From: Octopus vulgaris
Taxonomy: Eukaryota
Length of the DNA stretch: 64,000 nucleotides
Assembly (NCBI GenBank): GCA_951406725.2
Contig: OX597816.1
Location: 149,110,001-149,174,000, forward strand
Direction of reading: 5' to 3'
Made by a program: the position numbers and the translations under genes. Positions 18,886-63,585 of the stretch are shown here, one piece after another. A model generated the notes under the pieces. It was not told where the DNA came from. It was given only the letters and a program-made list of their open reading frames with translations, and did not search any database. Position 1 is the first letter of the stretch, and every line of letters starts with the position of its first letter.

Positions 18886-19227
18886 TAAAGGATCAGAAAT
18901 GTTCAGTTTGACAGAATTTTGATACGGCGAGGATACTAAGCAAGTTATAGATTCAATATTAACTCGATATTGACTGTTTATTGTAAAGAATGACTACAAA
19001 AAGAATAAATCGCTGATTCCTTGCTAGCATCTAAGTTAGCTTGTTTTGGGCACATACGCGCCGAATCAATGACAGGATGATAACAATGATGATGATTTTA
19101 ATATGTGAGTAGAAATTGACGAAACCAGCTAGCTGGTCCGACATTAAACATTGGAAATGGAGAAGATGGTAGCATTAGATGTGAATACTCTGGAGATGGT
19201 AGCATTAGATGTGAATACTCTGGAGAT

Positions 19228-31125: not shown

Positions 31126-32103
31126 TCATACTGGCAGTTGCACTGATGATAATTGTTTTCTGTTCCTTCCAGCTGTAAAATGTCCTGCAGGATACACACT
31201 TTTATTGCCACCAGATGTCGCCATGTTATCAAATGACTGAATTGTTATAGTTCGATTTTGTGGTTTAGAAGGGTTTTCTCTTACAGGGTTAGATGGGAAA
31301 CACATTTTCTTTTCAGTATGCAATGCAAATTCTAAGTTAGAATGTAAAGAGCTTTCAAATGTATTAGATTTTAACTTAGATGATGTTCCACGTGTCACAT
31401 TTGTTATTGCTTTGCTGTGTGTGGTATCTAACAATGGTAAAACAAATTCTGAAGTGGATGCATCCTTACAGTTCAGCATGGTGCTTCGTGTCTGAGAACT
31501 GTTCGAAACTGGAATGGATGAATAGAACTTACTATGCTCATATCTGCTTTCCTCAGGTTCCATAGGTTCATTCTTCACTGTGGGAGCCATGACAAAATTA
31601 CCAGAGGAATTGATATCTATGTTATCTAATAAGGCAACCTCAGAGTTGTTTCCAAACAATGTAACTCTATTTTCTTTGGGTAATAATTCAGCTCTTGAAA
31701 TCTTGTCATTAATACCACTGGATGATATTGAAAAGAAACGTGGAGAAAGCTGAACTGGTGTTGTAACATTTTGTGACACAGATACATTATCTGTCATTGG
31801 GTTGGATGCAACAAATGCATTAGTAGCTGTAATAGGTTGCTGATGTGTTGTATTAGGCAGTTGACTATCACACAGTTGTTCAAATTCTTTCATTTCCAAA
31901 CGTTTTGCAATGATTTTTAATTGATGTAAAATATTTAGATCAAGATCTAGAATCCCATTATACATATAATCAGCAAAAGCATCTAAGGCTTTTGTGCTAA
32001 CTTCCTGTGGTAAGTTAATGTGGAGAAAGTTCTGAGAGAGCATCTCTGCACCAAATACTGACAACAGTTTAGGACATACAGCAAATAAGACAACTTTATG
32101 TAC
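31126..32103 (-). CDS. BTB module 2, exon C (terminal coding exon)
   Basis: Acceptor TTTCAG|GTA; VHKVVLFAVCPKL...FADYMYNG; 978 nt to stop. Confidence 0.9.
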   Translation of the reverse strand, partial: VHKVVLFAVCPKLLSVFGAEMLSQNFLHINLPQEVSTKALDAFADYMYNGILDLDLNILHQLKIIAKRLEMKEFEQLCDSQLPNTTHQQPITATNAFVASNPMTDNVSVSQNVTTPVQLSPRFFSISSSGINDKISRAELLPKENRVTLFGNNSEVALLDNIDINSSGNFVMAPTVKNEPMEPEESRYEHSKFYSSIPVSNSSQTRSTMLNCKDASTSEFVLPLLDTTHSKAITNVTRGTSSKLKSNTFESSLHSNLEFALHTEKKMCFPSNPVRENPSKPQNRTITIQSFDNMATSGGNKSVYPAGHFTAGRNRKQLSSVQLPV

Positions 32104-33676: not shown

Positions 33677-33971
33677 CATCACTGTAGATAAACCATTGTC
33701 AATACTAGCATCACATAATTTTCCACTCTTCCATAGCAATGCCAGGCTGGACATTACATTTTTCTGATGATCAGCAAGAATAAATATTTTCTTCCCTTGA
33801 GGCTGTGGTATTTCAAAGGTCTTTGGTTGTGTAGTAGGTACTGGAACTGGAAAGGTAGAGAAATGAACTGGATCTGGCATATTTTCTGACTCCTCAACCA
33901 CACAGATAAGGTTTTTGATTGAAGGTTTCTGAGAATTTTCAGCCATCTTAGAGATATGACCAATATTTTGC
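33677..33971 (-). CDS. BTB module 2, exon B (LWKSGKLCDASI)
   Basis: Acceptor TTTCAG|G (phase 2), donor ATG|GTAAGT (phase 0), 295 nt. Confidence 0.88.
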
Positions 33972-34065
33972 CTGAAATTCATTGAGATAAAAATTATGAT
34001 AAATGCATGAACTCAACAGAAAATACTTGCATAGTAAGAAGCTATGACAAAATTTATTTAGTTAC

Positions 34066-34265
34066 CTGTCAGTAAAATCATTTTCTTGACAATTTTTCTT
34101 TAATTTCAAATTTTCTTCCTGAAATTCCTTGGGAAAAGTCTGCTTCTTAGGAATTTTGGCAGGTGGAGATGGAGGATGGTCACTGTCTGAGATAAGAACT
34201 GTAGCAGGAGAGCTAGGAGGTTGCTTTTTTTTGTTTAAATATAAGTTTTTATTTGATGATCCGGC
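34066..34265 (-). CDS. BTB module 2, exon A (AGSSNKN...PATVLISDSDHPPSPPAKIPKKQ...DFTDR)
   Basis: Absent from the ORF track because it has no start. Phase-0 acceptor ATTGTAG|GCC, phase-2 donor AG|GTAACT, 200 nt open, homologous to 63350-63585; contains no Met. Confidence 0.85.
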
Positions 34266-37212
34266 CTACAATAATAAAATAGATTCTTTAAGAACAGAAA
34301 ACAGGTTTGAACTTTTATGCAGAAAAATATCTCTACATTATGCAGAAAATGTCAAGTTTTATTAATTTCTAATGAAGTGAGAGAATATGACCTTAGATAA
34401 GCTTCATGAATCTGGTACAAACTAGCATCTTACTCAGAGTACAGCAATGTACCACTGATCAGTTGTGAATCAAAACCTTAGCCACAGGCTTGCACTTTGT
34501 TATAAAAGACAACAATTGTTTTTAGAGAAGAGTTCAAGTCTTAAATTATATTTTGATTACTAATTGTCAGACTCAAGTGAAACAGCTTGAGTCTGACTCT
34601 CAACTGTAAATATTTCACATCAATTACATTACTAATTCTCTTGCAAAAGGCATTGGTATCACACAATTCCTTTCCTACTACTCAACAAATTCTAGTATTT
34701 TATCCCTTTGCTGGATACTGTAGAATAACAGTTAGTAGCTAAGAAAGCTTGTCTATGACTTTGCTTAATTTTGTTGTAGCTATTTCACTTCATCAACATT
34801 TTAAAGTTTCTGAAAAAAGGCGTGAACATCATAAAATTTCTTTCTCATAGTCATACAAATCTGAAGCCACACACCCGAGTAAGAAATCCTTATTTATAGC
34901 TAAAGAGTAGTACAGCTTATAAAATAACCGAGCATAATCTGACTCTACAGACCTACCAGTGATCAGTTTACTTGAATTCATGAACAATCAGTTACAGAAA
35001 CATAATATATTTCATCATCAACAATAAGGCATGGTTTCAATTGCCACATGACTTTTTCAATCGGTAATTTTCATCAAGTTAAAATTTGTCATAACTACAC
35101 CTGCAACTGTACAATATGGTTTGTTTATTTGTAGCAGCTTAACACCTCTTTCAACCAGTCCTGCCTCAAAATTTATTATCCAATGGTTTGCCAAAAATAG
35201 TTAGGATTATACTTGCAAGATTTATTTTTTTACAAAAGGGCTAAATGGTTTTAAGCATATTGATGTTATGAACATGAAACACATGGTTCTACATCAATAA
35301 TCTAGCATACAAATACAAAAAGTATATAAGTACATAGACAGAGAGAGAAAAGTGCAAACATAGCTGTGTGGTTAAGAAGTTCACTTCCATGGTTTGGAAT
35401 TCAATCCAACTGCATGGACTGGGCAAGTATCTCTCTATAGCCAACCAAAGCCTTGTGAGTGGATTTGGTAGATGGGAACTGAAAGAAGCCCATTATATGT
35501 GTATGAGTTTGAGTCATGTCTTGGAATTGTAGGCTTACCAATACCTTGTGAGTGAATTTGGTTGATGGAAACTGCATGGAAGCTTTTACATCTGTATACA
35601 TGCACATATAAGTATGTGTGTGCACACAGTTATGTTTACGTCTTGTCATTTGACAATTGTGTTTATTGGTGTCCTGATAATTTAGTAGTGAGACAAAAAG
35701 AGATGAATGATTGCAAAAGTTTGATGGTGACATCAGTTTACAATTAGAGCACAATAGCAGGACAAGAAGACACAAACACACACACATATTATGCTTGCTC
35801 TCTATGCACACATGAGCTGGATGGTTCAACAGGATCTGACAGCTTGCTTCCTAACCACATGGTTCTGGCTTCGGTCCCATGGCGTGGCACCTTGGGCAAG
35901 TGTCTTCTACTGTAGCTTCAGGCCAACCAAAGCTTTGTGAGTGGATTTGGTAGACAGAAACTGAAAGAAGCCCATTGTGAGTGTGTGTGAGAGGGTGTGT
36001 TTGTGTTCGTCCCCTACTACTGCTTGACGACCAGTGTTGATGTGTTTATGTCCCTGTAACATAGCAGTTTGGCAAAAGAGACTGATAGAATATGTACCAG
36101 ATTTAATAAAAAAATTACTGGGGTTGATTCATTCAACTAAAAATTTTTAGGGCAGTGCCCCAGTATGGCTGCAGTCTAATAACTGAAACAAGTAATAGAA
36201 TACACACACACAAACAAACATAATAGGCTACATTCAATTTCCTTCTATCAAATCGACCTACAAACTTTTGTTTAGTCTGAGGCTATTCCAGAAGATACTT
36301 GCACAAGGTGTCACACAGTGGGACTGAACCCAAATTCACATTGTTGTGAAGCAAGCCACTTAACAAGAGTCATACCTGCACGCACACACATTTCTTCCAG
36401 AGAGTGACAAGTTCGAAAGAAGTTGTGTGTGGCCACTTAGAATAAAGAAATCAAAGATAAGTCTGAGAGTGAATAAATCCATAATTGTTTGTCTGACAAA
36501 ATATATTTTTCGAACTAACGATAGAGCACCTAATACACTTTGTAAAGTGGTTGGCGTTAGGAAGAGCATCCGACCAAAGCAGACAACAGAGCTTGGCACA
36601 GTCCTCTTGCTTGCTAGCTTCTGTCAAACGGCACAGATCACGGCAGTATGGGAAACGGACGTTAAACGATGATGATAATGTACGTGTGTGTACATGCACA
36701 CACATACACATCCATTTATTATTATTACTATTATTGTTATTATTATTAATCGGCAGAAGTTACAATGTGAGTCAAGGGCCGGGCGTTTCATGATGTCATT
36801 TACCAAACTGACAGTTTGCTAAGTAGCATGCACGAATCTCTCGAGCCTAGAGTCATTTCGTAACTCCTACTGATTAATATTAATAAATAATAATACTATA
36901 TATATAATACACGCATGCATATATATATATATATATATAAAATCATCATAACACCACATCCACGCATACAAAGAGTGTGTCTATATAAACTATTCTTGTG
37001 TGTTTGTATAAACAGACACTAGTTAACTAGTATATTTGGGTTTTAGAACAGATTCGTAAAATGAAAACTAACCTAAAATGAATGTCTGAATTAGATTATT
37101 TATTGGTTAATAACACGCGTGTTGATCGATTACCAACAGACCTGTTAGATATTGACGTGTCTCAAATCGATGCAACGTAGCATTTATTGACAAATATGGT
37201 GATAGTACTTAC

Positions 37213-37650
37213 CAAGTTCGCAATTTCTGCTCTCTTTTTAAATTTATGAAACCAACCTTGACTAGCCTTAAATGGACGAATTTCGTAATCTGAACTACGG
37301 GGGAAGCTTTTCTTCACATGTTCATAAATCTCTAGGGCTTTTTCACGAATAACTTCCATATTTACTTGGTCCCCCTTCTTTTGCTTTTCCTTTATCCACA
37401 TTAACAAACGCTTCTCAACTTCGACTATGAAAGACCTGTTTTTAAAGACTCTGGTTGATTTATCAATTACCTTCACAGATTTTAGTCTTTCTTTTTGGGC
37501 ACATATGGTTGCAACAGTCGAAGGGGGAAGCCCGTATTCAGCACAAAGAACTCTTCTTTTAAAGCCTTGTTCGAATTTGTTGATAATTTCCTGTTTTTGT
37601 TGGATCGTTATGACTTTGCGCTTCGTCTTTGTTTTGGGTTTAGATGACAT
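37213..37650 (-). CDS. Candidate alternative first exon: CENP-B/pogo-Tigger bipartite HTH DNA-binding domain (146 codons)
   Basis: KRKVITIQQKQEII...YGLPPSTVATI (CENP-B N-terminal/psq-type HTH) and EKRLLMWI...IREKA...FKASQGWFHKFKKR (Tc5-type HTH). Consensus phase-0 donor TTG|GTAAGT. No DDE domain follows. Confidence 0.85.
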
Positions 37651-38182
37651 GACTATTCGAAAATTTATTTTGCAAAACAGAACAGAGACAAATTTTCAAT
37701 GAGAGTTAAGTGGGGGGAAAAAAGCCTTAATTTTAACTCCAGTTACGTGAAGTTAACATTCAAGTAAAAACGTGATCTCGTACGGCTCTCGTTAATGTAC
37801 AATAAAGTGATGAACGTTAAACGAATTGTCGCGTCATGAAGAACTTGTTAACCGAAGTAGGAAAGAAACACACACTCACATATACATCAACATTCTGAGA
37901 AAACCGTTAAAAGAGATGGATAGTAAATGTCACTATTCCTATTCACATAAATAAACCTTATGAAAGAGGAGGAGTTTCGTCTCTAACTTTTGTCGTGAAA
38001 ATATGGGTGTAGGTTATATTTGACACTTCGTAAACAAGCCAACAGACGTAATATTTTTTGTCAAGACTGTATCACCATTACGAGTTACACACGATCATGT
38101 ATTGATTCACAACTCAAAACAATTTATAAAAACAAAATACTATTTCCATGCCCTAAAATACAAGCATTGTATAAACAATAAT

Positions 38183-39652
38183 AGGTATTGATTCTTTCAC
38201 CCGCACGATTTTTACTAAGAAAAAAAAAACTCGGATTTTTTGCGTGGACTCAAGTACCCTGACCTCCTAATATACTGCAAACTCCTTTTTTTTTTGTTCG
38301 GAAAAAAAAGGATGGGGGGAAAACCGGACCTCCCACCTACCCACCCACATCCCGAAATCACTGGAAATTTTTTTTCATTGAGTAAATTCCGTTGACCTAA
38401 TATGCTACAAAACCTTTTTTGGGGTCAGGAAAACGGGGTGGGGTGGAACCCTCGGAAATGTCACCCTCCTCCCCATTTTCAAATATGTTTTGCTATTTCT
38501 TTCTTTATCCATAATTTTAGATAACATTTTGCAGAAATACGATTTCGAGAGAGTGTGGATTACATTAGATTGAAAATTCAAAAAAGTTTGAAATGAATAA
38601 GTGAAAATGCAGAGGTTATAGAAGTTAGTGGTAACGAAGTGCGGAGAGATAAACGATGAATTCATCTTTAGAAAAACACGTTAGAGTTTTTGCATGTATG
38701 AGTGAAACGGAACAAAGTATAATATTAACAAAATATCTTAAAAATCACTGGATATAATACATATAATAATCCCGAATAGATTTTCCTGGCTTGCCAGTCT
38801 TGTCAAACCGTCCAACCCATGCCAGAATGGAAAGCGGACATTAAACGATGATGGTGATGATGATGTATAATGATATATATATATATAATTATGACAGATT
38901 GTTATCCATTCAATGTTTAAGTAAACTTCGTCACCCTCTCTCTCTCTCTCTCTCCACATAAAAATGAAACAAATTTCGGCGCCAAAAATTGCAAAGGGAA
39001 AATCTATTTTTGGTGCCAAAATGTGTTTCATTTTTTTGTGTGGAGAAAACGTATTTCTGCAAAATATTATCTAAAATTAAGAGTAAAGAAAGAAATAGCA
39101 AAAATTATTTGAAAATGAGGATGAGGTGAAATTTCCGAGGATCCCACCCAACTCCGTTTTCCAGACCCAAAAAAGGGTTTTGTAGCATATTAGGTCACCG
39201 GAATTTAGTCAATTAAAAAAAAAAAAAAATTCCCAATGATTCTGAGATGGAGGATCCGGTTTTCCACACACCCTTTTTTCCAAACAAAAATAAGGGGTTT
39301 GCAGCATATTAGGAGGTCAGGTTACTTGATTCCATGCAAAAAACCAGAGTTTTAGTTTTTCTTAGTGAAAATCATACAAGTGAAAAGATCAATGGAGGTG
39401 GGAGGTGAAATTTCTGGACCCAAAAACGGTTTTGTAGCATATTAGAAAGTCACCAGAATTCATTCAATGGAAGAAAAAATTTCCAATGATTCCGGGATAT
39501 GGAGGGAGGGGTGACCGGACCTCCTTCCTTTTTCCGAATAAAAATAAGGAGTTTGCAGCATATTAGGTGGTCAGGGTACTTAATTCCATGCAAAAATTGT
39601 GAGGGTTTTTTTTCTGAGTGAAAATCGTGCGGGTGAAAGGATCAAAATCTAC
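38183..39652. mobile_element. Long-TIR foldback-like DNA element with nested SINE fragment
   Basis: Imperfect inverted arms (TTTCACCCGCACGATTTT ... AAAATCGTGCGGGTGAAA); duplicated subterminal block on the right; SINE tail near 38785-38865. Confidence 0.75.
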
Positions 39653-39759
39653 TCAATAATATCAAGATGTTTAAAAGAATCATCTACATGAATACATGTG
39701 GAGTGGTACATGTGAACATATTATCCTTATTTAGCTGTATATTGTGTTTTTTCACCTAC

Positions 39760-40110
39760 TGAATAACAGAGAGCATATCCAATTGGAGATTTGTCAGGTC
39801 TCTTACATTTAGAAGCCTTCAGACATCTGCATAAATTCTTATGTTGTCTTTGATGAAGTCAGTGATGTCATTAAAGTAAATTATGAATAGAAGGGAACCC
39901 GATATTGTGCCTTGTGGGACTCCACAAATGACTCTTACTGAACTTGATCAAACATCATTGATCACCACATGCCGAGTATCGTTCACCAGGAAGCACTCAA
40001 TCCACTTAATAATTTCTCTCAGACTACAATTTTGAATTGTTTCTCTAACAGGATGCTGAGATCAACCTTGTCAGAGGCCTAGCTGAGGCCAAAGTACATG
40101 ACCTCTGCTT
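39760..40110 (-). mobile_element. Decayed LINE RT fragment
   Basis: GVPQGT...LLFIIYFNDI and YAD traces on minus strand. Confidence 0.65.
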
Positions 40111-40479
40111 TGGAGCAGATATATTGTTGTAGTGAAAATGGTACTCCCCTTCCCATGTGACAAAGTGGTATGATAGACCACTATAAAGTCAGTCGTTGTA
40201 GGAGGTCAGTAATAGAAGAGTCATTGTATGAGTTCTCAGTTGGAGTTGGTATCAGTCACGTGTTACATAGACATTGAAAAAAGTTTTTTTCATGCAAACA
40301 ACATTGAAAAATTTTTCATGTGGAAAAATTAAAAACTTGACACAGGAATAACAAACATTTTTGTTGTACATATTTTACAAAAAATCCATAAAATTATGGG
40401 AAACTTTTGCTCGACTAAAGGCGGTGCTCCAGCATGGCCGCAGTCAAATGACTGAAACAAGTAAAAGAGTAAAAGAGTA

Positions 40480-41645
40480 AAGGGTCTAGTTGAGTTGCAA
40501 AAACAAGAACAACAAGTGTTACATCAACAACTGCTACAACTAATTAAGTTAGTAACAAAACTGGAAAATACATTTTCGCCAGACCAAGCAGCAAATTCAA
40601 TAAATGAATTTAAATATGACCCAAAAGAAGGAGTCACCTTCGATGCATATTACCAAAGATTTGAACAAATTTTTGAAAAATAATGCCAAGACTGGATGGA
40701 CAAAATGAAAATGTATCTAATTCTGAGGAAACTGGCAATGACAGAGCATACTAAATACTGTAACTTTATACTGTCTAAAAAAAAGTTTCTGACATAAATT
40801 TCCCGGACACAATTGACATTTTATGTAGGATGTTTAGTGAAAAAACATCATTGTTCAACACACATTGGAAGTGTTTGAACACCGAGAAAAGAGATGCCGA
40901 AGACTTTACCACACATGTGGGTAGAAAACTGGATAAACCAACTCCAGACTTGTTCAAGTGTCTGATTTTTGCTCAGGGACTTACTGCTAAAAAGGACGCA
41001 GAAGTCAAAATGAAAATTCTCACAAAGCTGGAAATGAACCAGGATATAACTCACCAGAAACTGCCAGAAGAGTGTGATATAATATTAAAAATAAGGCATG
41101 ACACAGAAGAAATCCAACGCAGAGATTGTTTACAAATAAAACCAGTGTGGAAGAGTCAGATGGCTAAAGAATTTCACAAAAAACATGATATATAACAGGA
41201 GATAAGCCTATGTATGGCATGCTTTTTTGAAAAGAGTGTTTGTTCAAAAAAGTAAAGTGTTTTCATTGAGGGAATACAGGACATATTAAATCGCACTGCA
41301 GAACTAAGATGATGAAAAACTGGACCAATCAAAAAAAATAAATAGTTTGCCATCAGAGAAAAAAATTTGTACAACATTGAAAATTCATCAAGGTGAGAAT
41401 CGAAACCACTAGTGTCAAAATGCAATTAGACATGAGTAGTGACATCACCATCATAAATGAAGAAACATGGCAACAAATCAGTAAGCTGAAATTATTTAAA
41501 TCAAATAAAGTAACATATGGTGTTACAGGAAAGAAATTATATTTCATCGGTGAATGTATTTGCAATGTTACTTTTCGAGGTGAAACAGAAAGGACAATCA
41601 GTTATGTGTTGAAAAAAATCACTAAACCTATTTGGCACAGAATGC
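40480..41645 (+). mobile_element. Gypsy LTR retrotransposon gag-protease remnant
   Basis: FKYDPKEGVTFDAYYQRFEQIF, FKCLIFAQGL, and protease-like LDMSSDITII; several stops and frameshifts. Confidence 0.8.
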
Positions 41646-42479
41646 ATGGAGCAAAGCAACTGGGGGAAGGAGCAAAGCAACTTACAGGCTCTCTGAGACC
41701 AATGAGATTCATGCCATTAGTTTTCCTCTGGAATACTATATGTGATGCATATGGACAAGACCAGCTGTGTAAAGAAGTGCTAATCTCTAACTGTGAAGGG
41801 AACCTATGAAAGAGGTAGACCCAGAAAGAAATGGGACAAGGTAATGGAGCACGATCTTCGAATGCTGGGATTCATGGAGGTAATAACAAGTGACAGAGAC
41901 CTTTTGTGACATGCTGTGCTTGAAAAGACTCATCAAGCCAAGTGAAATTATAGTCGTGGCTGTTGCTGGTGTCATGTAAATGGCACCCATGAAATTGTAA
42001 TTGCGACTGTTGCTAGTAACATGATATTCAAATGTTGGGCCTCACAGAGGTGATGAAAAGTGACTGAGACCTTGATGATATGCTGTGCTTGAGAAGACTC
42101 ATCAAACCAAGTGAAACTGTAGCTGTGACCATTACCAGTGTCATGTAGATGGCACCCATGAAATCGTAGTCACAGCCATTACCGGTATCATGTAAATGGC
42201 ACTCATGCCAGTGGCACGTAAAAAGCACCCGTTACACTTTTGGAGTGGTTGGCATTAGGAAAGGTGCCCAGCTGTAGAAACCATGCCAAATCAGACTGGA
42301 ACCTGATGCAACTCTCCAGCTTACACAGTTCCAGTCAAACAATCTAACCCATGCCAGCATGGAAAGCAGACATTAAATGATGATGGTGATGATGAAGTTA
42401 GTCAAATAGTCAGAGATTAAGAGAAATTTATGGATGTATAACATAGTGGTCAATTGGACATTCTTATGAGCTATAGATC

Positions 42480-44060
42480 AAATCTATGGCTGGCATAACA
42501 TTCCAACCAGACAAAGGGTAATATAGTGGTGAAACAGTGAAGTAGAGAGAGCCATAAAAACAGACAGACAGGCTTGGAAAGGTTGGAAATATGGGGATAA
42601 CAGATAATCACACCAGGTATAGAATAGAAGCTAGGTGACAGGTATATTTAGCAAGGGAGGAAGCAGAAGAGAAGATGTTTGCCAATATTCTAGTTTCAGA
42701 GGCATGAGGTGTTTTAGCTTGCAAGAAAGTGTATCAGACATAATCAAGATGTGTGAAAGAAGTGTATATGAATGGATAATGGTTCACTTACATCTCGTGA
42801 TTCTGGAAAGAAAGTATCACAGCAGTGTTACTATGAAAGGCTATTAAACATGGAGAATGCATAGAAGAAACAGAGCCTTCCAAATGTGAACCTGATAACT
42901 GACAGCAGTATGATAGACAAAGCAATCAAGGGTTTGAAGACAGGGAAAGCCACTGGTCTATCAGGAATTACCTTCAATATGCTTAAACTATAAAGTGAAG
43001 TAGGATATTGTCAAGTCACTGTATAGTTAATCCGGTTGTACAGGAAAGTATTATACCCAACAACTGGTGTAGTAGCATTATAGTCAACTTGTACAGGGGT
43101 AAAGGTGATGACTTAGGGAGGACTAATTACAGTTGTATCAAATTGTTGAACCAAGTCTTAAAAGTTACAGAAAGAGTTCTAGCCCAACTACGTAAGAAGC
43201 AGGTGTGATGAGATGAGATGCAATTTGATTTTGCGCTGGGGAGAAGTATCACTGATGTTCTTTTCATACTAAAGCAACTGCAGAAGTATTTAGCCCAAAA
43301 TAAACCACTGTCCTTGGCTTTCTTCAGCCTGGGAAAAGCCTTCAGCAGGCGCCCTTGTCCCTTGGTCTGGTGATTGCTGTGGAAGCTAAGAGTAGATGAA
43401 TGGCAAGTAAGAGCTGTGAAAAACATGTACAGAGGCACTGTCAGTAATGTAAGAGTTAGCAATGAGTACAGTAATAAATTTAGTGTACAGGTTAAGACTT
43501 CATTAGGGCTCAGTTCTCAGTCCCACCTATTTACCATAGAGGAGTTTGAAATCAGTTGCTTGTGTAAATTCTATGTGCCAGTGACCCTGTACTAGAATCT
43601 ATAGTAGAATTAGAAAAGAAATTCTAAGTATGGAAGAAAATCATGGAATCAAAGGGCTTTAAAGTTAACTTAAAAAAGTTCAAAGTCCAAGTAAGCAGGA
43701 AAACAGACAGCATGCTTATCTCTATGGTAAAATGGTCTTGTTTGACATATAGAAAAGGTATACATAGTAATTCTGTATGATGTATCCAGTGCAAACTATG
43801 AACACACAAGAAGTGTAATAGAATCACTGGAAGATTAACAGAAAAAAATAGACTGATTGTGGCAGATACACAAGAGCAGCGTAAAAGGCAGTACATAGTT
43901 TGTTACCTAGATGACTTAATTAACTGTAAAAAGTATAGTTGCTAGAATAAAAACTGGCTGCAGAAAGATCTCTGTTGGTAATTATTTATGTATGTGTGGA
44001 AACCTCAATAGTGCCGTTGTCCTCAGAGTGAAAGGCAGACTGTGTAATATTTGTGTAATA
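42480..44060 (+). mobile_element. Degenerate RTE LINE
   Basis: LYRGKGD...NYSCIKLL, LQKYLAQNKPL...LGKAF motifs; broken frames. Related fragments near 27930-28500 and 57150-57650 (-). Confidence 0.8.
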
Positions 44061-44319
44061 ACTATAATCTTTTATCTTTCACTGGTTTCAGCCAGAGCTG
44101 AGGTCATGCTGATGCACTACCTGTAGTTACTAAGTGTTGTTTCCAATATTGTTTTTGGTCAAGTAGCGAGTTGGACAGAGCTGCTTTTCTTTGCATCTCT
44201 TGCCGCAATGTGGGTTCATCTGGTATCTCAGATAGAAACTTGTCCAGACGTTCCTTGAAAACTTCCACATCAACACCATGTAGATATCTAAGGTTGCCTA
44301 GAAGGATGTTGAACAATTG

Positions 44320-47300
44320 CTACAGAATGACAGCAAATGCAATGTTGAGCTCCTGAAGAATCTGCATGTAATCAAGCTATATGCATTGCACTTACAGAAA
44401 CACATCTATCTTCAGGCATAAATGATGTGGAGATACACATACCAATGTATGCTATCTTCTGTAAGACAGAAGAAAAAGAAGTCACAGTGGAGTTGCAATG
44501 TACATCCGCAAAGTTGTCATACTATTAACCCTATTATTGAACTGAAACTCAGTGTGTGACACACTCATAGTACATCTAAAACAACTTGATATAGTGATAT
44601 GCACACTATATTGCCCACCTGTTGCCTCAAATCATGATGGAAAATTTGAGGAAAGCCTCAGTGCAATAAAAGAAGTACTAACACAATTGGATTAATGCAC
44701 TACTATATTCCTGATGGGTGATTTCAACTTCCCCAACATCAGGTGGCCTGAGGGCAATATAACCCCAGGAATGATGCACAAAGAGTGAAATCAACAAGAA
44801 TCTCAACCTGACCTTATGAGAAAGCTATTCATGGAGCAGATCATACTCTCTTCAACCAGGCACAAAAATATCCTGGACCTCTGTTTAACAAACAATGTGG
44901 AAATTATCCACAATGTAAATATATCAGTCGATATTCTCAGACCATAATATGATAGAACTGACAATGTATGGCCTGGAATTAACTAAAGATAAACTCTGCA
45001 CAGATGACGCTCACACATTATCCAGCCTAAATTTCTATGAGTTTGACTGGAAGTCACTTGAAAAACACACACTCCAGCAAGACTGGCCTAAAAGCCTCTC
45101 TATGCAAGACATAGATATGAAACTCAATAAATTCATGTCAATAATGTGAGCCATATGCATTAAATATCAGGTCATCCCATAAGCTCTGTCCGAATTTTGA
45201 ATAAAGAAAACAAGTGATCAAATGTTATATTTAATTGAAATTTAATCAACGTAATTTCCTTGATTATCTATGACTTCATGACTTCTTTCCATCTATTTAC
45301 AAGCTTTTAAATCCCATCAATGTAAAACTCTTTTGGTTTCAAAGCGAAGAACTCTGAAATGTCAGTTTCGACCTCCTCCTGGCTTGCAAAAGTTATGTCC
45401 CCCAAATGATTCTGTAAACTACGAAACAAATGGTAGTCTGAAGGAGCAAGGTCGGGAGAGTAAGGTGGATGAGGAATTTTTCCCAACCAAGCTTTTCAAT
45501 CTTCTGTGATGTGATCTTTGCAGTGTGGGGTCGCGCATTGTCCTGATGAAACATCACTCCTTTTCGATTAACTAAAGCTGGTCTTTTTTTTCTTCAAAGC
45601 TTGGTTCAAACACTAATTGCTGACAGTAGACTTGAGCATTGATTGTTGCATTAGATGAAAACAATTCAAAGTGAATTACTTCTTTGCAATCCCACCAGAT
45701 ATTGAGAAGAACCTTTTTCCCATGAAGGTCCCTTCTCGGTTGTGGTTGAGCTTTTTCCCTTTTACCAAGCCACTGTTTACGACATTTAATATTTTGATAG
45801 AAGATCCATTTTTCGTCACCAGTCACAAGTCTATCCAAAAAGGGTGAAAAGTGTTCATGAGAATGGAAAGAAGAGCAGATGGCAACTCGGGTTTGCAGTT
45901 GCTTTCAGACAATTCATGAGGCACCCAGTTTCCAAGTTTAGGAACCTTTCCAAGTTGCTGAAGATGATGATGAACAGTTGTATTGTTTGAACTAAGCTTT
46001 ATTGCCAATTCTTCAACTGATAATGCAGGATTTTCTTCAAGCAATGCCTCAAGGAGCTTATCATCAAACTCAACTAGACGTCCTGTTTGATCTTCAACTT
46101 CAAGGCTGAAATCTCCACCACTGAATTTTGCAAACCCTCTGCTGCAAGTTCTTTCATTCAAGCATTCTTTCCCATAAACTGAGCGTATGTTTCGAGTTGC
46201 TTTGGCTGCAGAGTTTCCTTTTTTTGTACTCATAAAGCATTATGTGCCTCAAGTGCTCTTTGGATACTTCCATGTTAGAAAGGGTTTTAATCAAAGAAAT
46301 TTTAATTCTATTATTCTGTAAAATAATATTTAATAAGTTTAAATGTACACAAATGCATAAAAATAATTTTTAATTCCATTAGACATTCTAAAATACTATT
46401 AAATTTCATTCAAATTTAAAAAAGGTAAAATCAGACAGAACTTATGGGATGACCTGATATATTCCAGAGAAGAGAGCCAATACACAAAAAAACATTCCCC
46501 AAGACAGGAGAATACTCATGTTGCAGAGAATAAAGATCTTGAATAGTTTAAACAAACACCTTAATGACAGCGTGAAATCCCACTTGACAGAGGAGCTCTT
46601 CGAGAGACAAAATAAATTCAAACTCTCCCATGAAAAAGAGAAACCTGGGCAGTCGAAAATATAAAAAAGAAATCCTAAAGCCTTCTACACTTTGGTAAAG
46701 GAGTCTGCCTCAGTACGCTATGAGATAAAAAATGGCTCACTAATTGCAGACCTGGGGAAGATAAGTAAAGCACTAAATAAACAATTCTGAAGTGTTTTCA
46801 CTTCTCCACTGGAAAATATGCAAACAAACAAGCTGAAGGAGTTTTCGAATGTAATCAATCTATTCGGAAAAGAGGCAACCATCGATTACATCAACATAAC
46901 AGAAGAGGATGTAATATCGACCATTGATGAGATGAGATAAACTCAGCAACAGGCCCAGATGGACTCGCAGCTGTTCTCTTAAAGACATGTGAAAAGGCTC
47001 TTGCAAAGTCACTGTAGATACTCTTTAGAGTTTCTTTGCATGTGACCAACTTCCCAACATGATAAAAGAGGGTATATGCCCTGTCCATAAAGGAGGGAAC
47101 AGAGCAGATGCTAAGAACTACAAGCCCATCTCTCTGACCTCACATGTTAGCAAGGCAATGGAATGCATTGTCAGAAAAAGGCTGATAACGCTCCTAGAAG
47201 AAAACAACCTTCTCACAAACATGCAACATGGCTTCCGTCCAGGGAGGAGCTGCCTCACACAGTTGCTGCAGTACTTTGACCGGGTACTGAAGTAACAACT

Positions 47301-47700
47301 AAACTAGTCAGCTACAGACATAATATACCTCGACTTTGCCAAGGCCTTCGACAAGGTTGATCATGGCATGACATGTCACAAGCTGCGAAACCTTGGTATT
47401 ACTGGGAAACTAAGAGTGGCTGCATGATTTTCTGAAGGGCAGGAGTCAGATAATTGTAGCCAATAGTGCTCAGTCTGAAGAGACACCAATTCTCAGCGGA
47501 ATTCCATAGGGAACTATACCAGGGCCACGATTATTCGTGATAGCCCTCTCAGACATGCTTTCCGCTGTCTGACCAGTTATGCTGACGACACAAAAGTATC
47601 ACAGGCAGTTAGGAATCCGGAAGACATCATAAAACTGCAGAAAGACCTGAACAAAATCTACAAACAGGTTAATAAAAATAACATGCGGTTCAATTTTAGG
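44320..47700 (+). mobile_element. Degenerate CR1/L2-group LINE (endonuclease+RT) interrupted by a mariner
   Basis: MGDFNFPNI, ILDLCLTN, SDHN, NYKPISLTS, QHGFRPGRSCLTQL, YLDFAKAFDKV, YADD; in-frame stops. An oppositely oriented LINE 3' fragment lies at 44104-44316. Confidence 0.88.
45167..46457 (-). mobile_element. Full-length mariner with frameshifted transposase
   Basis: TA TSD, TIRs TCAGGTCATCCCATAAG / CTTATGGGATGACCTGA; WVPHEL, TGDEKW, DNARPH, YSPDLAPSDYHLF. Confidence 0.95.
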
Positions 47701-49151
47701 CATTCAAAGTATGAGTTTATTGTATTGGGACACACTTATTAAATACGTTCTGGAATAAAAAATTTATGTATTGTTATCGAAAAACTGTAACTGGTAAAAT
47801 GCAGAATTATCAGAGTTATGGACAATGAAAGTGTACATGCATCAACAAAGTGCAACAATAAGGTTTAGCAGTTCAAAACTGTGAGTAGTGAAATGCAGAA
47901 TTAGGTTCGCTGAATCTGGAATCAAAAATTATGTTCTGTCATCAGATATGTTTAACTGGAAAAATGCAGAATTATCGGAGTTATGGGCACTGAAAGTGTA
48001 CATGCTACAGCAGAAGACACATGCCAAGTTACCACACAGTGGGACTGAACTGAGGACCATGTGTCTTGGAACCAAGTTTGTTACCACACAGCCACACCTG
48101 CACCTATGTATGTGTGTATATATGTGTGCATGTGTATATATGTGTACATATTACATGTACATCTATATATATATAAATCTATGCATACATGTATACATAT
48201 ACATACATGTATACATATATATATATACATGTATATATATATCTCCATATATACATCTATATGTATACATCTATCTATATATATATATATATATATATCA
48301 TCATCATCGTTTAACGTCCGTTTTCCATGCTAGCATGGGTTGGACGGTTCAACTGGGGTCTGGGAAGCCAGAAGACTGCGCCAGGCCCAGTCTGATCTGG
48401 CAATGTTTCTACAGCTGGATGCCCTTCCTAACGCCAACCACTCCGTGAGTGTAGTGGGTGCTTTTTACGTGCCACCTGCACAGGTGCCAGTTGAGGCTGG
48501 CAAACGGCCACGATTGGATGGCGCTTTTTACGTGCCACCGGCACAGGGGCCAGACGTGGCTGGCAACGGCCACAATCAGATGGTGCTTTTTACATGCCAC
48601 CGGCACTGGCAACATCCACGTTCGGACAGTTCTCTTATGTGCCACCGGCACTGGTATCACAGCTACAATTTCCATTGATGTTGATCAATTTCGATTTTCA
48701 CTTGCCTCAACAGGTCTTCAAAAGTTGAGTTTGTGTCACAAGAAGGAAAGGTATGCATAAGTGGACTGGCTACATCCCAGGTAGAGGCCACGGGTTATGG
48801 TAGAAGCCACTACCATAGATACATGGAAATTTAAATTAAAATTAATAAGGGTGAAAAATTGAATATTAATTTGATTAATATGAATTGAAACCCAGTGGTG
48901 TAGCACATAAGACCATAGCAGATCTTCTAGCAAAATGAATGTCCACTGTTAATGGTTCATCCCTCATATAGGCAAGAAGTTAAAAATTTTTTTTGCCAAT
49001 GACATTATATGGACCCTAAGTAAGGCATGTGTAAAATTTGAAAGAAATTGGTTGTGTAGTTCTAAAGTTTAGGGATTCACACAGATAGACACACATTCTC
49101 AGTTTTATATATATAGATATATGTGTAATATATATATATAATCTATATATG

Positions 49152-49194
<43 letters not shown>

Positions 49195-49809
49195 TACTTA
49201 TATATACTCTTTTACTTGTTTCAGTCATTTGACTGCGGCCATGCTGGAGCACCGCCTTTAGTCGAACAAATCGACCCCGGGACTTATTCTTTGTAAGCCC
49301 AGTACTTATTCTATCGGTCTCTTTTTTGCCGAACCGTTAAGTAACGGGGACGTAAACACACCAGCATCGGTTGTCAAGCAATGCTAGGGGGACAAACACA
49401 CACATGTATATATATATATATATATACATATATACGACAGGCTTCCCTCAGTTTCTGTCTACCAAATCCACTCACAAGGCATTGGTCGGCCCGGGGCTAT
49501 AGCAGAAGACACTTGCCCAAGATGCCACGCAGTGGGACTGAACCCGGAACCATGTGGTTGGTTAGCAAGCTACTTACCACACAGCCACTCCTGCGCCTAT
49601 ATATGTATATATAATATATATTATACATATTATATATATATATATATAAATAATTTTTTCTATGTTGTTTCAGCTCAAAGCTGTGGTCATGCTGGAGCAT
49701 ATATATATACATACCTGTACGTGCGTATATATACATTTAACCACACACATATATATATCTGACAGACGCATCACTAACACCAGAAATTAGCAGGGACACT
49801 AAAGTGTAA

Positions 49810-50103
<294 letters not shown>

Positions 50104-50338
50104 TACAGACATACATAGAGGAGTGTGTGGTGAGGTCTCAATCTGTATAAGTATAAACACCGAATAATGAAAGTGTATATAATGTGAAGCAAGTTCTAAG
50201 AATTTTAAGCAAATATACAGCATTTTCATTCAGCGTTTCAAACTGAAAGCTAAAGAAAATCGCTAACTTTCGTATTACATTTGAGAGTGTGATAAAATAC
50301 ACAAATGATAATATAAAAACAAAAGTAGGTCTGTTTAC

Positions 50339-50713
50339 TTTGTTCGTTTGAAATATTTCCATTTGTCTCCATATCCTGTTTGGATTTTCGTTTTGGGGTA
50401 GGGAACTTGCTGTTTCTTGGGGGAAAGCTGGTGTACAATTCTCAGTTATTGTTCTCGCAACTTCTGTGTTGTTAGCTCCTGCTGTAATTTGTTGTATTGT
50501 TTTGAGAACAACGTTTCTACAGGCATCTTGTGGATGAGAATGTGGTGGTGGATCATACTGCAGAACATCATCAATTGTTTTGAGTCTTGCAGCGCATGTT
50601 TTTCTTTCTTCACATTTCCAGTATGTAATATTATTTTTCTTCTTATCAACAGTATAAGCGTACCCATTATATAGTAATTTCCTGCCGCCACGTTTAGTAA
50701 GAGTGAATTCCAT
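50339..50713 (-). CDS. Candidate alternative first exon: FLYWCH zinc finger (125 codons)
   Basis: MEFTLTKRGGRKLLYNGYAY...YWKC-x5-C...HSH is the FLYWCH pattern. Phase-0 donor AAA|GTAAAC at 50339/50338 (weaker consensus); the ORF beyond it reads as AT-rich intron. Confidence 0.8.
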
Positions 50714-51423
50714 AGTCACAAAAAATGATTGATGAATACGCTATATAAAATAATTCGGATGAACGTATGGTGTTGACCAACGTTGCATGTGTAAATTATA
50801 CTGAATTAAATTCACGAGACAGTTGCAAACAACTGTCTTTTTAATTACTGTGAATATCATGCAATGTCCAAGAGTCTTCGAAACTAAAGGCTATAAAATA
50901 TAAGTACAATGAAAACGTGAAACCGAAACGAAGAAATGAACTGTGTACGAAGTTTCTCAATATATGTAGAACACACCCACATACATATTAGTGTGTGCAC
51001 AACAAAGTAAAAGGGTGGCTTATTAGCAATTAGAACCTAAAGGCAAAATTAATAGAGGTCGCAAAAATGACGGAATATAGTGATTAGCACCGCTTATGCT
51101 AAAATAAGAGTTAAATTAACTCCAAACCCACTAAAGCACTATACTTAATGGCTGATGAAGAGAGGTAAGCCCCTAGAATATTTAGCCATATCGCGATTTC
51201 GAATTTTGGTGTAGACTACCTTAATTCTCATCAGCAGCCTAAGGTTAAATTCAACTTCCACTGGCAATCTTATTAGAAAAACAGTTGAAGATGGATAAAC
51301 ATAACTCCTAAACTAATCCCCTGGCCCTTTTTCATTTCACCACCTTTTTCACAACAGCCGTTGAAAGTTTATACTAATTCACCTCCAACAATAGAGAGCA
51401 GTCAGCATATTCCCTTCCTTATT

Positions 51424-51515
51424 GGCTAACTCTGATGAGCATAAAGTTATATAATCAGTTTGTTACTTAACACCCCATTGCATTCTTTACGCGAAACCGA
51501 TTGGTAAGATCAGCC
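51424..51515 (+). ncRNA. Type I hammerhead ribozyme-like motif
   Basis: CTGATGA (51432-51438), stem II GCATAAAG/CTTTACGC, GAAAC-C-GATT-G-GTA, stem I GGCT/AGCC; imperfect stems. Confidence 0.5.
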
Positions 51516-61535: not shown

Positions 61536-62600
61536 TCAAGTAAGACCATCTGTTTTATATAAACCTATATTTTTGACACTGGTAACTTGTGATGATGATA
61601 ATGGTAAACTGTCCCCTCCTGCTGTAAAAAGTCCTACAGGATAGACACCTTCATTGCTACCAGAAGTCACAATGTTGTCAATTGACTGAGTTGTTATAGT
61701 TCGATTTAGTGGTTTAGAAGGGTCTTCTCTTATGGGACTGGACTGAGAACACATTTTTTCTACAATACATGATACAGGGGATAAATCAGAAACTAGAGAG
61801 CTTTCAAATACATTAGATTTTAATTTAGACGTTCCTTGCAATACATTTGTAGTGTTGCTATCTGTGGTGTCTGAAAATGGTAAAACAAATTCTGAAGAGG
61901 ACACAACCGTAGAATTCAAACCGGTACCTGGTATCCGAGAACTGATTGATACTGGAGTAGATGTGTAAGACTGATTATTCAGTTGACCATACCTGTCATC
62001 TTCAGGCCCTACAGGTTCAGTTTTCACACTGGGAACAATAACAAAACCACCAGAAGAATTGCCACTTTTACTAGCATCTAGTGAAGCAACCTCAGATTCC
62101 TGTCCAAAGACAGCTGCTGTATCTTTCTTAACTTGTGCTAATTCAGCCTCAGATATCTCTTGTTTAACATCAATGACTTGTGTAGTGACAGATGGAGTAG
62201 AGTGAGATGAAACTGATGTGATGGATGATGAAGGCAGAGATGGTTGAACTGTTGGAACTGTAATACTGGGTGGGTTTGATAGAATGGTCTGCATCTGGCT
62301 GAGATCACCAAATACAGTAACCGTTGAAGCTGGTTGATGAGGTATTGTGCTTGGAAGACGACTATCACACAGTTGTTCAAATTCTTTCATGTCCAAACGT
62401 TTTGCAATGATTTTTAACTGATGTAAAATATCAGGATCAATATCTAATAGCCCATTGTACATATATTCAGCAAAGGCATTTAAAGCTTCTGTGCTAACTT
62501 CTTCAGGAAAGTTCACTTGGAGAAACTTGTGAGAGAGGATATCTGTACTAAATACTGACAACAGTTTTGGACACACAGCAGACAGGACAACTTTATGCAC
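61536..62600 (-). CDS. BTB module 3, exon C (terminal coding exon)
   Basis: Acceptor TTTCAG|GTG; VHKVVLSAVCPKL...FAEYMYNG; 1065 nt to TGA. Confidence 0.92.
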   Translation of the reverse strand: MHKVVLSAVCPKLLSVFSTDILSHKFLQVNFPEEVSTEALNAFAEYMYNGLLDIDPDILHQLKIIAKRLDMKEFEQLCDSRLPSTIPHQPASTVTVFGDLSQMQTILSNPPSITVPTVQPSLPSSSITSVSSHSTPSVTTQVIDVKQEISEAELAQVKKDTAAVFGQESEVASLDASKSGNSSGGFVIVPSVKTEPVGPEDDRYGQLNNQSYTSTPVSISSRIPGTGLNSTVVSSSEFVLPFSDTTDSNTTNVLQGTSKLKSNVFESSLVSDLSPVSCIVEKMCSQSSPIREDPSKPLNRTITTQSIDNIVTSGSNEGVYPVGLFTAGGDSLPLSSSQVTSVKNIGLYKTDGLT

Positions 62601-62958: not shown

Positions 62959-63262
62959 CATCACAGTAGATGAGCCATTACCAATACCAGCATCACACAA
63001 CTTTCCACTTTTCCACAGAGATGCTAGATTGGACATGACACAACGCTGATGATCAGCAACAACAAATATTCGTTTTTCTCGTGGTCGAGGTTTTTCCACA
63101 GGCTTCGGTTTGGGTTCACTTATTTGAATTGGTGGAGCTAACACTTGAACAGGCCTTGTAATATTTTGAGAAACCTGGGCCACACTCATATGCTGCTGGA
63201 CTGGCATTTGAGCTTGTAGTGTTTTTGCAGCCATCTGAGATACCTGAGTGTTAACCATTTGT
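62959..63262 (-). CDS. BTB module 3, exon B (LWKSGKLCDAGI)
   Basis: Acceptor TTTCAG|A (phase 2), donor ATG|GTAGGT (phase 0), 304 nt. Confidence 0.9.
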
Positions 63263-63349: not shown

Positions 63350-63585
63350 CGCCGGTCATCAAATCGACGATTTTCGAACCTCCGTTCCTGGAAACGCTGC
63401 TCTTGGAAGCGTTGCTCATCAAAGCGTCGATCATCAATTTGTTTTTTCTGAATTTTTGCAGGTGAAGGTTGAGGAGGTGAATCATCTGGAATGAGCACTG
63501 GTGCAGACGAGACAGTGGCAGCAGCAATCTTTTTACGCCTAGGGTTCTCAGGCTTTCCGGAATATACTTGATTTGAAGGTCCTGC
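63350..63585 (-). CDS. BTB module 3, exon A; its upstream exon(s) probably lie beyond the window
   Basis: Phase-0 acceptor TTTACAG|GCA, phase-2 donor CG|GTATGT, 236 nt, no Met. Confidence 0.87.

What the first reader, a model, noticed from the sequence alone, without database searches (positions are those of the whole stretch)
50339..50740. Solo FLYWCH exon 16 kb upstream of BTB2
Seen: intact FLYWCH followed by a helical stretch and a phase-0 donor. An in-frame candidate acceptor (TTTTATATAG|CGT, 50740) also lies 9 codons before the ATG, so the exon could be internal. Known: FLYWCH occurs in Mutator-family transposases and in mod(mdg4) variable exons. Inference: an independent FLYWCH-BTB fusion with reversed domain order.
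Basis: partly seen in the sequence, partly recalled or inferred. Interest (0 to 1): 0.72.

Follow-up and report, generated by a model that had tools for sequence, protein, structure and literature searches.

The report
Swappable transposon heads on octopus BTB
In an octopus genome, a zinc-finger exon likely taken from a DNA transposon is spliced across 16 kb onto a BTB gene as one of two alternative first exons, and the neighbouring gene has over twenty such annotated first exons, so the cluster likely builds many DNA-binding proteins on a shared scaffold, a mirror image of the fly genes mod(mdg4) and lola.

Summary
The exon is real and the fusion is shown. The minus-strand frame 50713-50339 is an intact FLYWCH, and one transcript contig joins 50339 to the BTB2 acceptor at 34265. 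It is a first exon, not an internal one: contigs of 4 of 4 runs pass unspliced through 50740. It is not solo: a CENP-B/Tc5 exon (37650-37213) uses the same acceptor (3 of 4 runs). The exon matches the first 126 residues of a Mutator-type transposase (59%), and no catalytic part was found. The larger result lies beside the window. The paralogue BTB3 has 22 mapped alternative first exons over about 175 kb (THAP, HTH, Psq, FLYWCH, Brinker, DUF3504), all on one strand, funnelled through three relay exons. One is 69/70 identical in cuttlefish. The proteins are in RefSeq models and in one paper's supplement, but ten literature searches found no description of the architecture. BTB3 junctions rest mostly on annotation; DNA binding and dimer mixing are inferred. 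Verdict: new variant of a known kind, interest 0.75.

The parts
50339..50713 (-). Coding part of the FLYWCH first exon (125 codons, phase-0 donor); N-terminal part of a Mutator/MULE-type transposase
   Evidence: Pfam; identical to residues 1-125 of P0001; 58-60% to ENA MULE proteins; donor
50714..51367 (-). 5' leader of the same exon; holds the unused AG at 50740, 8 upstream ATGs and a relic of a multi-copy repeat (50979-51292)
   Evidence: Contigs run unspliced from 50338 to 51367, 51352, 50894 and 50884; the O. bimaculoides cDNA in a paper's supplement starts at the position matching about 51294 (compared by eye); repeats; ATGs
34266..50338 (-). Intron of the FLYWCH isoform (16,073 nt), which contains the second first exon
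   Evidence: 757-nt contig of run X8 lies on 50338-50894 and on 34065-34265; its loose end equals window 50339-50368
37213..37650 (-). Second alternative first exon: CENP-B_N plus HTH_Tnp_Tc5 (pogo/Tc5-type DNA-binding domain), 146 codons, phase-0 donor; leader reaches at least 38194
   Evidence: Pfam; joint 34264/37212 in 3 of 4 runs; P0028, P0030
34066..34265 (-). BTB2 first constant exon, shared phase-0 acceptor
33677..33971 (-). BTB2 second constant exon (linker and start of the BTB domain)
   Evidence: joint to the upstream exon in 4 of 4 runs, to the last exon in 2 of 4
31126..32103 (-). BTB2 last exon (rest of BTB, long Ser/Thr-rich tail, stop)
   Evidence: Pfam
63350..63585 (-). BTB3 first constant exon; acceptor for the large array of variable first exons that lies beyond the window
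   Evidence: loose ends at 63585 in 3 of 4 runs among the rows shown
62959..63262 (-). BTB3 second constant exon
   Evidence: joints in 4 of 4 runs
61536..62600 (-). BTB3 last exon, ending in its own stop; no join onward to 50740 among the joints shown

Best explanation
The exon is an alternative first exon, likely captured from a Mutator-type DNA transposon, that is spliced in frame across 16 kb onto the constant exons of BTB2, giving a FLYWCH-linker-BTB protein that likely binds DNA and is predicted to dimerise through its BTB domain. A second first exon (CENP-B/Tc5 helix-turn-helix) plugs into the same acceptor, so promoter choice likely decides which DNA-binding head the protein carries. 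The neighbouring paralogue BTB3 uses the same design at large scale, with at least 22 annotated first exons reaching the constant body directly or through up to three short relay exons. Shown: the exon, both BTB2 junctions, first-exon status in these runs, loss of the catalytic part, one strand and matched donor phase across the array. Inferred: one promoter per exon, cis-splicing, DNA binding, and pairing of isoforms with different heads into two-site regulators.
For: Junction 50339|34265 with 557 and 201 letters on the two sides in run X8; 29-letter overhang at 50338 in the other 3 runs. HTH junction in 3 of 4 runs. Both isoforms are annotated in O. vulgaris, O. sinensis and O. bimaculoides. 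A complete FLYWCH+MULE transposase (P0005, Pfam) matches the locus over residues 1-126 only, at 59%, the highest identity of its 101 listed genome matches and without a stop. Finger region 71/75 identical versus tail 38/50 between two octopus species, p=0.005. In a 27-row tree the exon groups with MULE transposases and two genomic relics (99/96), apart from the FLYWCH exon of the BTB3 array. Array: 20 of 20 first exons tested have a GT exactly at the annotated junction, 16 in phase 0 and 4 in phase 1 into one relay exon. 25 of 122 minus-strand ORFs against 0 of 100 plus-strand ORFs hit DNA-binding or transposon-derived Pfam families (p=1e-7). 10 of 31 THAP matches in the genome fall in this 162 kb. 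CpG observed/expected upstream of 34 first-exon ATGs is 0.87 versus 0.51 in 400 background stretches. BTB2 homodimer model: score 0.82, best control 0.01, contacts agree at least 96%, pLDDT at least 85; the mark was reached by 21 of 30 microbial pairs and 0 of 23 single chains, in eukaryotes by 17 of 29 pairs (animals 7 of 16; 1 of 7 without an older solved relative) and 0 of 30 single chains. BTB dimers are solved, so the pass may be from memory.
Against: The FLYWCH junction letters were shown in only 1 of 4 runs, and all runs are assembled contigs whose RNA status is a guess by the tool (canonical spliced joints argue for RNA). Contigs cannot fix a start site. Only 15 of 73 joints and 24 of 784 loose ends were printed. 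One intronic contig (50130-50320, depth 5, X19) suggests some unspliced RNA. BTB3 first-exon junctions rest on database models plus donor checks; no reads were laid on those exons. The branch joining the exon to the ENA/pipefish transposases is not starred (92/86), and no clade test or outgroup was run. No terminal inverted repeat was found. DNA binding was not tested. The closest solved BTB is Kelch-type, so a Cul3-adaptor role is not excluded.
Confidence: 0.8

Rival explanations
1. mod(mdg4)-type order: the exon is a variable 3' exon that receives BTB3 exons at the AG at 50740.
For: An in-frame AG lies 9 codons before the ATG, and BTB3 lies upstream on the same strand. An O. vulgaris model (P0029) shows BTB2 spliced onward to a downstream exon at 18936.
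Against: Contigs pass unspliced through 50740 in 4 of 4 runs, and no joint into it is among the 15 of 73 shown. BTB3 ends in its own stop at 61536. The exon's donor is used. The P0029 joint was not seen: contigs cross 31534 unbroken in 4 of 4 runs.
Confidence: 0.03
2. The fusion transcript is made but is neutral: a transposon relic supplies a leaky promoter and donor, and the FLYWCH head does nothing.
For: The leader holds repeat relics and 8 upstream ATGs; the tail of the exon drifts quickly (38/50); no relative of this fusion outside Octopus appeared.
Against: The finger region is much better kept than the tail (71/75 versus 38/50, p=0.005). The frame is open in the window and in the O. bimaculoides protein, while most MULE relics in the genome carry stops. 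The array exons are strand-biased, and one is 69/70 identical in cuttlefish.
Confidence: 0.07
3. The protein is real but works as a protein adaptor, not a DNA-binding regulator: the FLYWCH binds partner proteins and the BTB recruits Cul3 or a corepressor.
For: The best solved matches of the BTB are two Kelch-family BTBs (E 2.3e-7 and 4.4e-4), ahead of BCL6 and ZBTB18. PMC11426971 notes that FLYWCH may bind DNA, RNA or proteins (passages).
Against: No BACK or Kelch domain was found in P0001. The interchangeable heads come from many unrelated DNA-binding families, which points to DNA as their common target.
Confidence: 0.1

Closest known systems
Drosophila mod(mdg4) and lola
   Same: One constant BTB joined to many variable DNA-binding exons; mod(mdg4) has at least 31 isoforms, 26 with FLYWCH (PMC4667647, passages).
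   Different: Order is reversed (variable 5' exons, BTB in the middle, constant tail). The BTB lacks the FxLRWN motif of the arthropod TTK type (PMC11426971, passages; P0001 reads KKIFILADH there). All mapped exons lie on one strand. The heads come from many transposon families and appear separately captured, whereas mod(mdg4) FLYWCH exons arose by tandem duplication.
Vertebrate host-transposase fusions (KRABINER, SETMAR, PGBD3-CSB; bioRxiv 10.1101/2020.05.07.082677)
   Same: A transposase DNA-binding domain spliced in frame to a host regulatory domain, born as an alternative isoform (passages).
   Different: There the transposon usually supplies an acceptor upstream of its ORF (8 of 9 cases), and the main text holds no 'BTB'. 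Here the transposase part is the first exon and leaves by a donor, and one gene holds many captures.
Octopus THAP-BTB, CENPB-BTB and FLYWCH-BTB entries in PMC10027918
   Same: The supplement lists the O. bimaculoides orthologue of this fusion (Flywch2, LOC106877745), its HTH partner, and 11 hits to LOC106877732.
   Different: The paper treats them as separate factors and calls BTB the transposon component. Main text: 0 uses of isoform, promoter or variant, and 'splic' only in a reference; the supplements have 0 uses of isoform, first exon or spliced.
Clustered protocadherin and UGT1 loci (recalled, no call)
   Same: An array of variable first exons, each with its own promoter, spliced to shared constant exons.
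   Different: Those variable exons are paralogous copies. Here they are unrelated domains of several families, and relay exons create four tiers.

Membership tests
mod(mdg4)/lola | BTB upstream of the FLYWCH or zinc finger | tested here: not met
   P0001: FLYWCH 3-60, BTB 271-374; junction
mod(mdg4)/lola | TTK-type BTB with FxLRWN motif | tested here: not met
   motif defined; absent from the BTB extension of P0001
mod(mdg4)/lola | many isoforms share one BTB and differ in a DNA-binding module | tested here: met
   2 for BTB2; 22 mapped first exons for BTB3 from database models
mod(mdg4)/lola | trans-splicing, with some variable exons on the opposite strand | tested here: inconclusive
   no opposite-strand exon found (0 of 100 ORFs); splicing between alleles cannot be seen in contigs
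host-transposase fusion gene | transposase-derived domain fused in frame to a host domain by splicing | tested here: met
host-transposase fusion gene | purifying selection on the captured domain | tested here: inconclusive
   protein-level contrast 71/75 versus 38/50; no dN/dS computed
host-transposase fusion gene | sequence-specific binding to the cognate terminal repeat | not testable with these tools
   needs a binding assay; donor element ends not identified
autonomous Mutator/MULE transposon | DDE catalytic domain | tested here: not met
   residues 127-444 of P0005 give no hit at E<=1 in 464 kb around the exon
autonomous Mutator/MULE transposon | terminal inverted repeats and dispersed copies | tested here: not met
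   no inverted repeat in 50110-52200; no second DNA copy of the coding part among 40 of 2308 candidates scored; one decayed relative, 83% over 109 nt
dimerising (ZBTB/Kelch-type) BTB | N-terminal extension that forms the homodimer | tested here: met
   aligns from residue 255 to KLHL26 and from about 259 to BCL6; model interface includes 252-271, score 0.82 versus control 0.01, may be from memory
protocadherin-type variable first exon array (features recalled) | own promoter for each variable exon | tested here: inconclusive
   separate unspliced 5' leaders for the two BTB2 exons; raised CpG upstream of 22 of 34 exons; no start-site data
protocadherin-type variable first exon array (features recalled) | stochastic, cell-by-cell promoter choice | not testable with these tools
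   needs single-cell 5' data

The most novel reading that the evidence does not exclude
The cluster is a transposase-capture cassette unique to coleoid cephalopods. Since before the octopus-cuttlefish split it has kept recruiting DNA-binding heads from unrelated DNA transposons as new first exons with their own promoters, funnelled through relay exons onto one dimerising BTB. Isoforms pair into a combinatorial DNA-recognition code, chosen cell by cell, that either specifies cell identity as lola does in flies or marks the source transposons for silencing. The FLYWCH exon is a recent capture on a duplicated BTB.
Probability: 0.3. Interest if true: 0.9.

Novelty: new variant of a known kind. Interest (0 to 1): 0.75.

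Why it matters
It would be an independent invention, in cephalopods, of the mod(mdg4)/lola strategy with the order reversed and promoter choice in place of 3' exon choice. It shows transposase capture happening many times in one gene rather than once per gene. It also changes how octopus transposon-derived transcription factors are counted: at least some listed as separate factors share one gene identifier. Exon-specific 5' counts in single-cell data make the question of a combinatorial code directly testable.

Tried and rejected
Internal-exon reading and BTB3-to-FLYWCH joining: rejected for these four runs. Remaining catalytic domain or inverted repeats: none found. Origin by duplication of the BTB3 array's FLYWCH exon: not supported, as that exon sits on a separate long branch (17 of 19 genomic relics used, L017 and L019 dropped for short matches; midpoint root, no clade test). 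A shared promoter motif among 34 upstream regions: only CpG-containing and A-rich words were enriched, no clear motif. The run search listed no holder on record as RNA, which is no evidence either way. The profile search of protein representatives never ran because the queue was full, so the reach of the FLYWCH exon beyond Octopus stays open. Contig depths were not used to rank isoforms. Earlier findings of the scan: nothing listed. Literature searches that found no description of the architecture; the library lacks most subscription journals. Papers seen: PMC10027918 (passages, section 5, supplement search hits only), 10.1101/2020.05.07.082677, PMC4667647 and PMC11426971 (passages only; their supplements were not seen); other listed papers as search listings only.

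Full report
Observation. On the minus strand an ATG at 50713 opens 125 codons to a phase-0 donor after 50339. Pfam finds a full FLYWCH, E 4.7e-13. The window holds three BTB genes on the same strand, and the genome has 12 such paralogues in tandem at G000:C3:148.96-149.17 Mb among 23 matches. Proteins identical to the window's are named from Octopus. Coordinates above 64000 below continue the window numbering into fetched neighbouring stretches.

The 3' partner. P0001 (615 aa) is this exon followed by the BTB2 exons from 34265; O. bimaculoides has the same join (P0003). I tested this on assembled contigs of four runs from four studies. The tool marks three as 'RNA, a guess' and one as unknown; their canonical spliced joints argue for RNA. 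In all four a contig stops matching at 50338 and carries extra letters: 29 in X2, X5 and X19, 200 in X8. A contig of the same length and depth in X8 (757 nt) lies on 34065-34265, and its loose end reads exactly window 50339-50368. So the junction is shown with letters in 1 of 4 runs and is consistent in the other 3.

The 5' side. Contigs run unspliced through 50740 in 4 of 4 runs, to 51367, 51352, 50894 and 50884, and none of the 15 of 73 joints shown enters 50740. The O. bimaculoides cDNA printed in a paper's supplement begins at the position matching about 51294 (compared by eye). BTB3 ends in its own stop. The exon is therefore a first exon with a leader of about 600 nt, and the mod(mdg4) order is not supported. 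One intronic contig of depth 5 hints at some unspliced RNA.

It is not solo. A CENP-B_N plus Tc5 exon at 37650-37213 joins the same acceptor in 3 of 4 runs, with its own unspliced leader up to 38194. Both isoforms are annotated in three species.

Origin. After the two octopus fusions, the other seven of the nine longer relatives are Mutator-type proteins from ENA and pipefish, 54-60% identical. A complete transposase (P0005; FLYWCH plus MULE) matches the locus over residues 1-126 only, at 59% and with no stop; most of its other listed matches in the genome carry stops (95 of 744 candidates scored). Its catalytic part finds nothing in 464 kb around the exon, and no inverted repeat was seen. A decayed relative elsewhere is 83% identical over 109 nt at the start codon. 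In a 27-row tree the exon falls in a supported group (99/96) with these transposases and two genomic relics, away from the FLYWCH exon of the BTB3 array. The closer grouping is weaker (92/86), and no clade test was run. Between two octopus species the finger region is 71/75 identical and the tail 38/50 (p=0.005), which suggests selection on the finger; dN/dS was not computed.

The larger system. The BTB3 orthologue in O. bimaculoides has isoform models numbered up to X36, of which I saw only part (15 of 32 members of the main cluster). Their N-termini carry THAP, CENP-B/Tc5, Psq, FLYWCH, Brinker and DUF3504 domains (the link of DUF3504 to Crypton transposons and of THAP to P elements is recalled). 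They map to 22 distinct first exons between 65291 and 240349, all on the minus strand. I tested 20 of the 22: every one has a GT exactly at the annotated junction. Five join 63585 directly, eight join a relay exon at 87473, four join a relay near 158118 in phase 1, and three join a relay near 212250. An unbiased check supports the array: of filtered ORFs in 64001-254000, 25 of 122 on the minus strand hit DNA-binding or transposon-derived families at E<=0.001 (19 above the curated cut-off; one may be a plain Tc1 relic), against 0 of 100 on the plus strand. Ten of 31 THAP matches genome-wide lie here. The kilobase upstream of 34 hand-picked first-exon ATGs has CpG observed/expected 0.87 against 0.51 in 400 background stretches, as separate promoters would give. 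An Argonauta model has a THAP head and the 87473 relay. A cuttlefish model has the relay, the same acceptor and a THAP 69/70 identical to the exon at 101094, so the array predates the octopus-cuttlefish split. No reads were laid on the array exons; only loose ends at 63585 were seen.

Mechanism. The BTB aligns, including its N-terminal extension, with Kelch-type and ZBTB-type domains. A homodimer model scored 0.82 against a best control of 0.01, with contacts agreeing at least 96% and pLDDT at least 85. The mark was reached by 17 of 29 eukaryotic pairs (animals 7 of 16; 1 of 7 with no older solved relative) and 0 of 30 single chains, and since BTB dimers are solved the pass may be from memory. 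Because isoforms share one BTB, a homodimer interface implies that different heads can pair. I infer a family of two-headed DNA-binding regulators whose make-up is set by promoter choice. Binding, targets and effectors are untested.

Comparison and novelty. It works like mod(mdg4)/lola but is not a member: the order is reversed and the TTK motif is absent. It meets the structural definition of a host-transposase fusion, though through a first exon and a donor. The proteins themselves are on record: RefSeq models, and the supplement of PMC10027918 lists this fusion's orthologue and 11 hits to the BTB3 gene identifier. That paper treats them as separate factors, calls BTB the transposon part, and does not mention isoforms or promoters. 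Ten searches found no account of the architecture, within a library that lacks most subscription journals.

Verdict. Observation confirmed, main interpretation supported, internal-exon idea not supported. The single fusion is catalogued and moderately interesting; the array it belongs to is the notable part. New variant of a known kind, interest 0.75.

Noticed in passing
window 18885-18715 (-) and 12456-12178 (-): Two further candidate first exons upstream of BTB1, encoding basic charged repeats and ending in phase-0 GT donors. The 12456 exon starts a database isoform (P0059); the other appears only as a downstream exon in one model (P0029), a join not seen.
   Followed up: partly
extended coordinates 189759, 117135, 92536, 77277, 72555, 68040, 64567 (L043, L026, L023, L022, L021): Minus-strand ORFs with Brinker, HTH, THAP or weak zinc-finger hits (117135 by likeness to THAP exons only) that match no isoform I fetched; likely more variable exons, which would bring the array near 30.
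   Followed up: partly
L046:2-394 (-), extended coordinate 214394: Tc1-type transposase start just upstream of the top relay exon, with phase-0 GTAAGT donors at codons 94 and 140; a possible capture in progress or a plain relic.
   Followed up: partly
   Followed up: no
G000:C14:52.07 Mb, C24:25.66 Mb, C2:173.1 Mb, C3:151.25-151.38 Mb: Other BTB paralogues also have a THAP exon upstream on the same strand, so THAP-BTB may be the ancestral form of the family.
   Followed up: no
P0002, P0007, P0008 (pipefish models): The same MULE family appears fused to the 3' side of three different host genes in pipefish models, a separate set of captures in the usual orientation.
   Followed up: no
P0050, P0051, P0056: Unnamed assembly proteins that read two DUF3504 exons through their donor to an intronic stop, which suggests stand-alone short forms or unspliced RNA.
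   Followed up: no
G000:C15:71.430-71.438 Mb (+): Three intact FLYWCH matches within 8 kb, about 65 kb upstream of a BTB match on the same strand; could be another variable-exon BTB locus.
   Followed up: no
window 19120-21231 (+): An open 703-codon frame that reads like a LINE reverse transcriptase (family recognised from memory, not scanned).
   Followed up: no
window -68 to -517 (L031) and P0022, P0059: O. sinensis models skip the BTB1 last exon and join BTB1 upstream exons to paralogues further down the cluster; read-through between paralogues or a model artefact.
   Followed up: no
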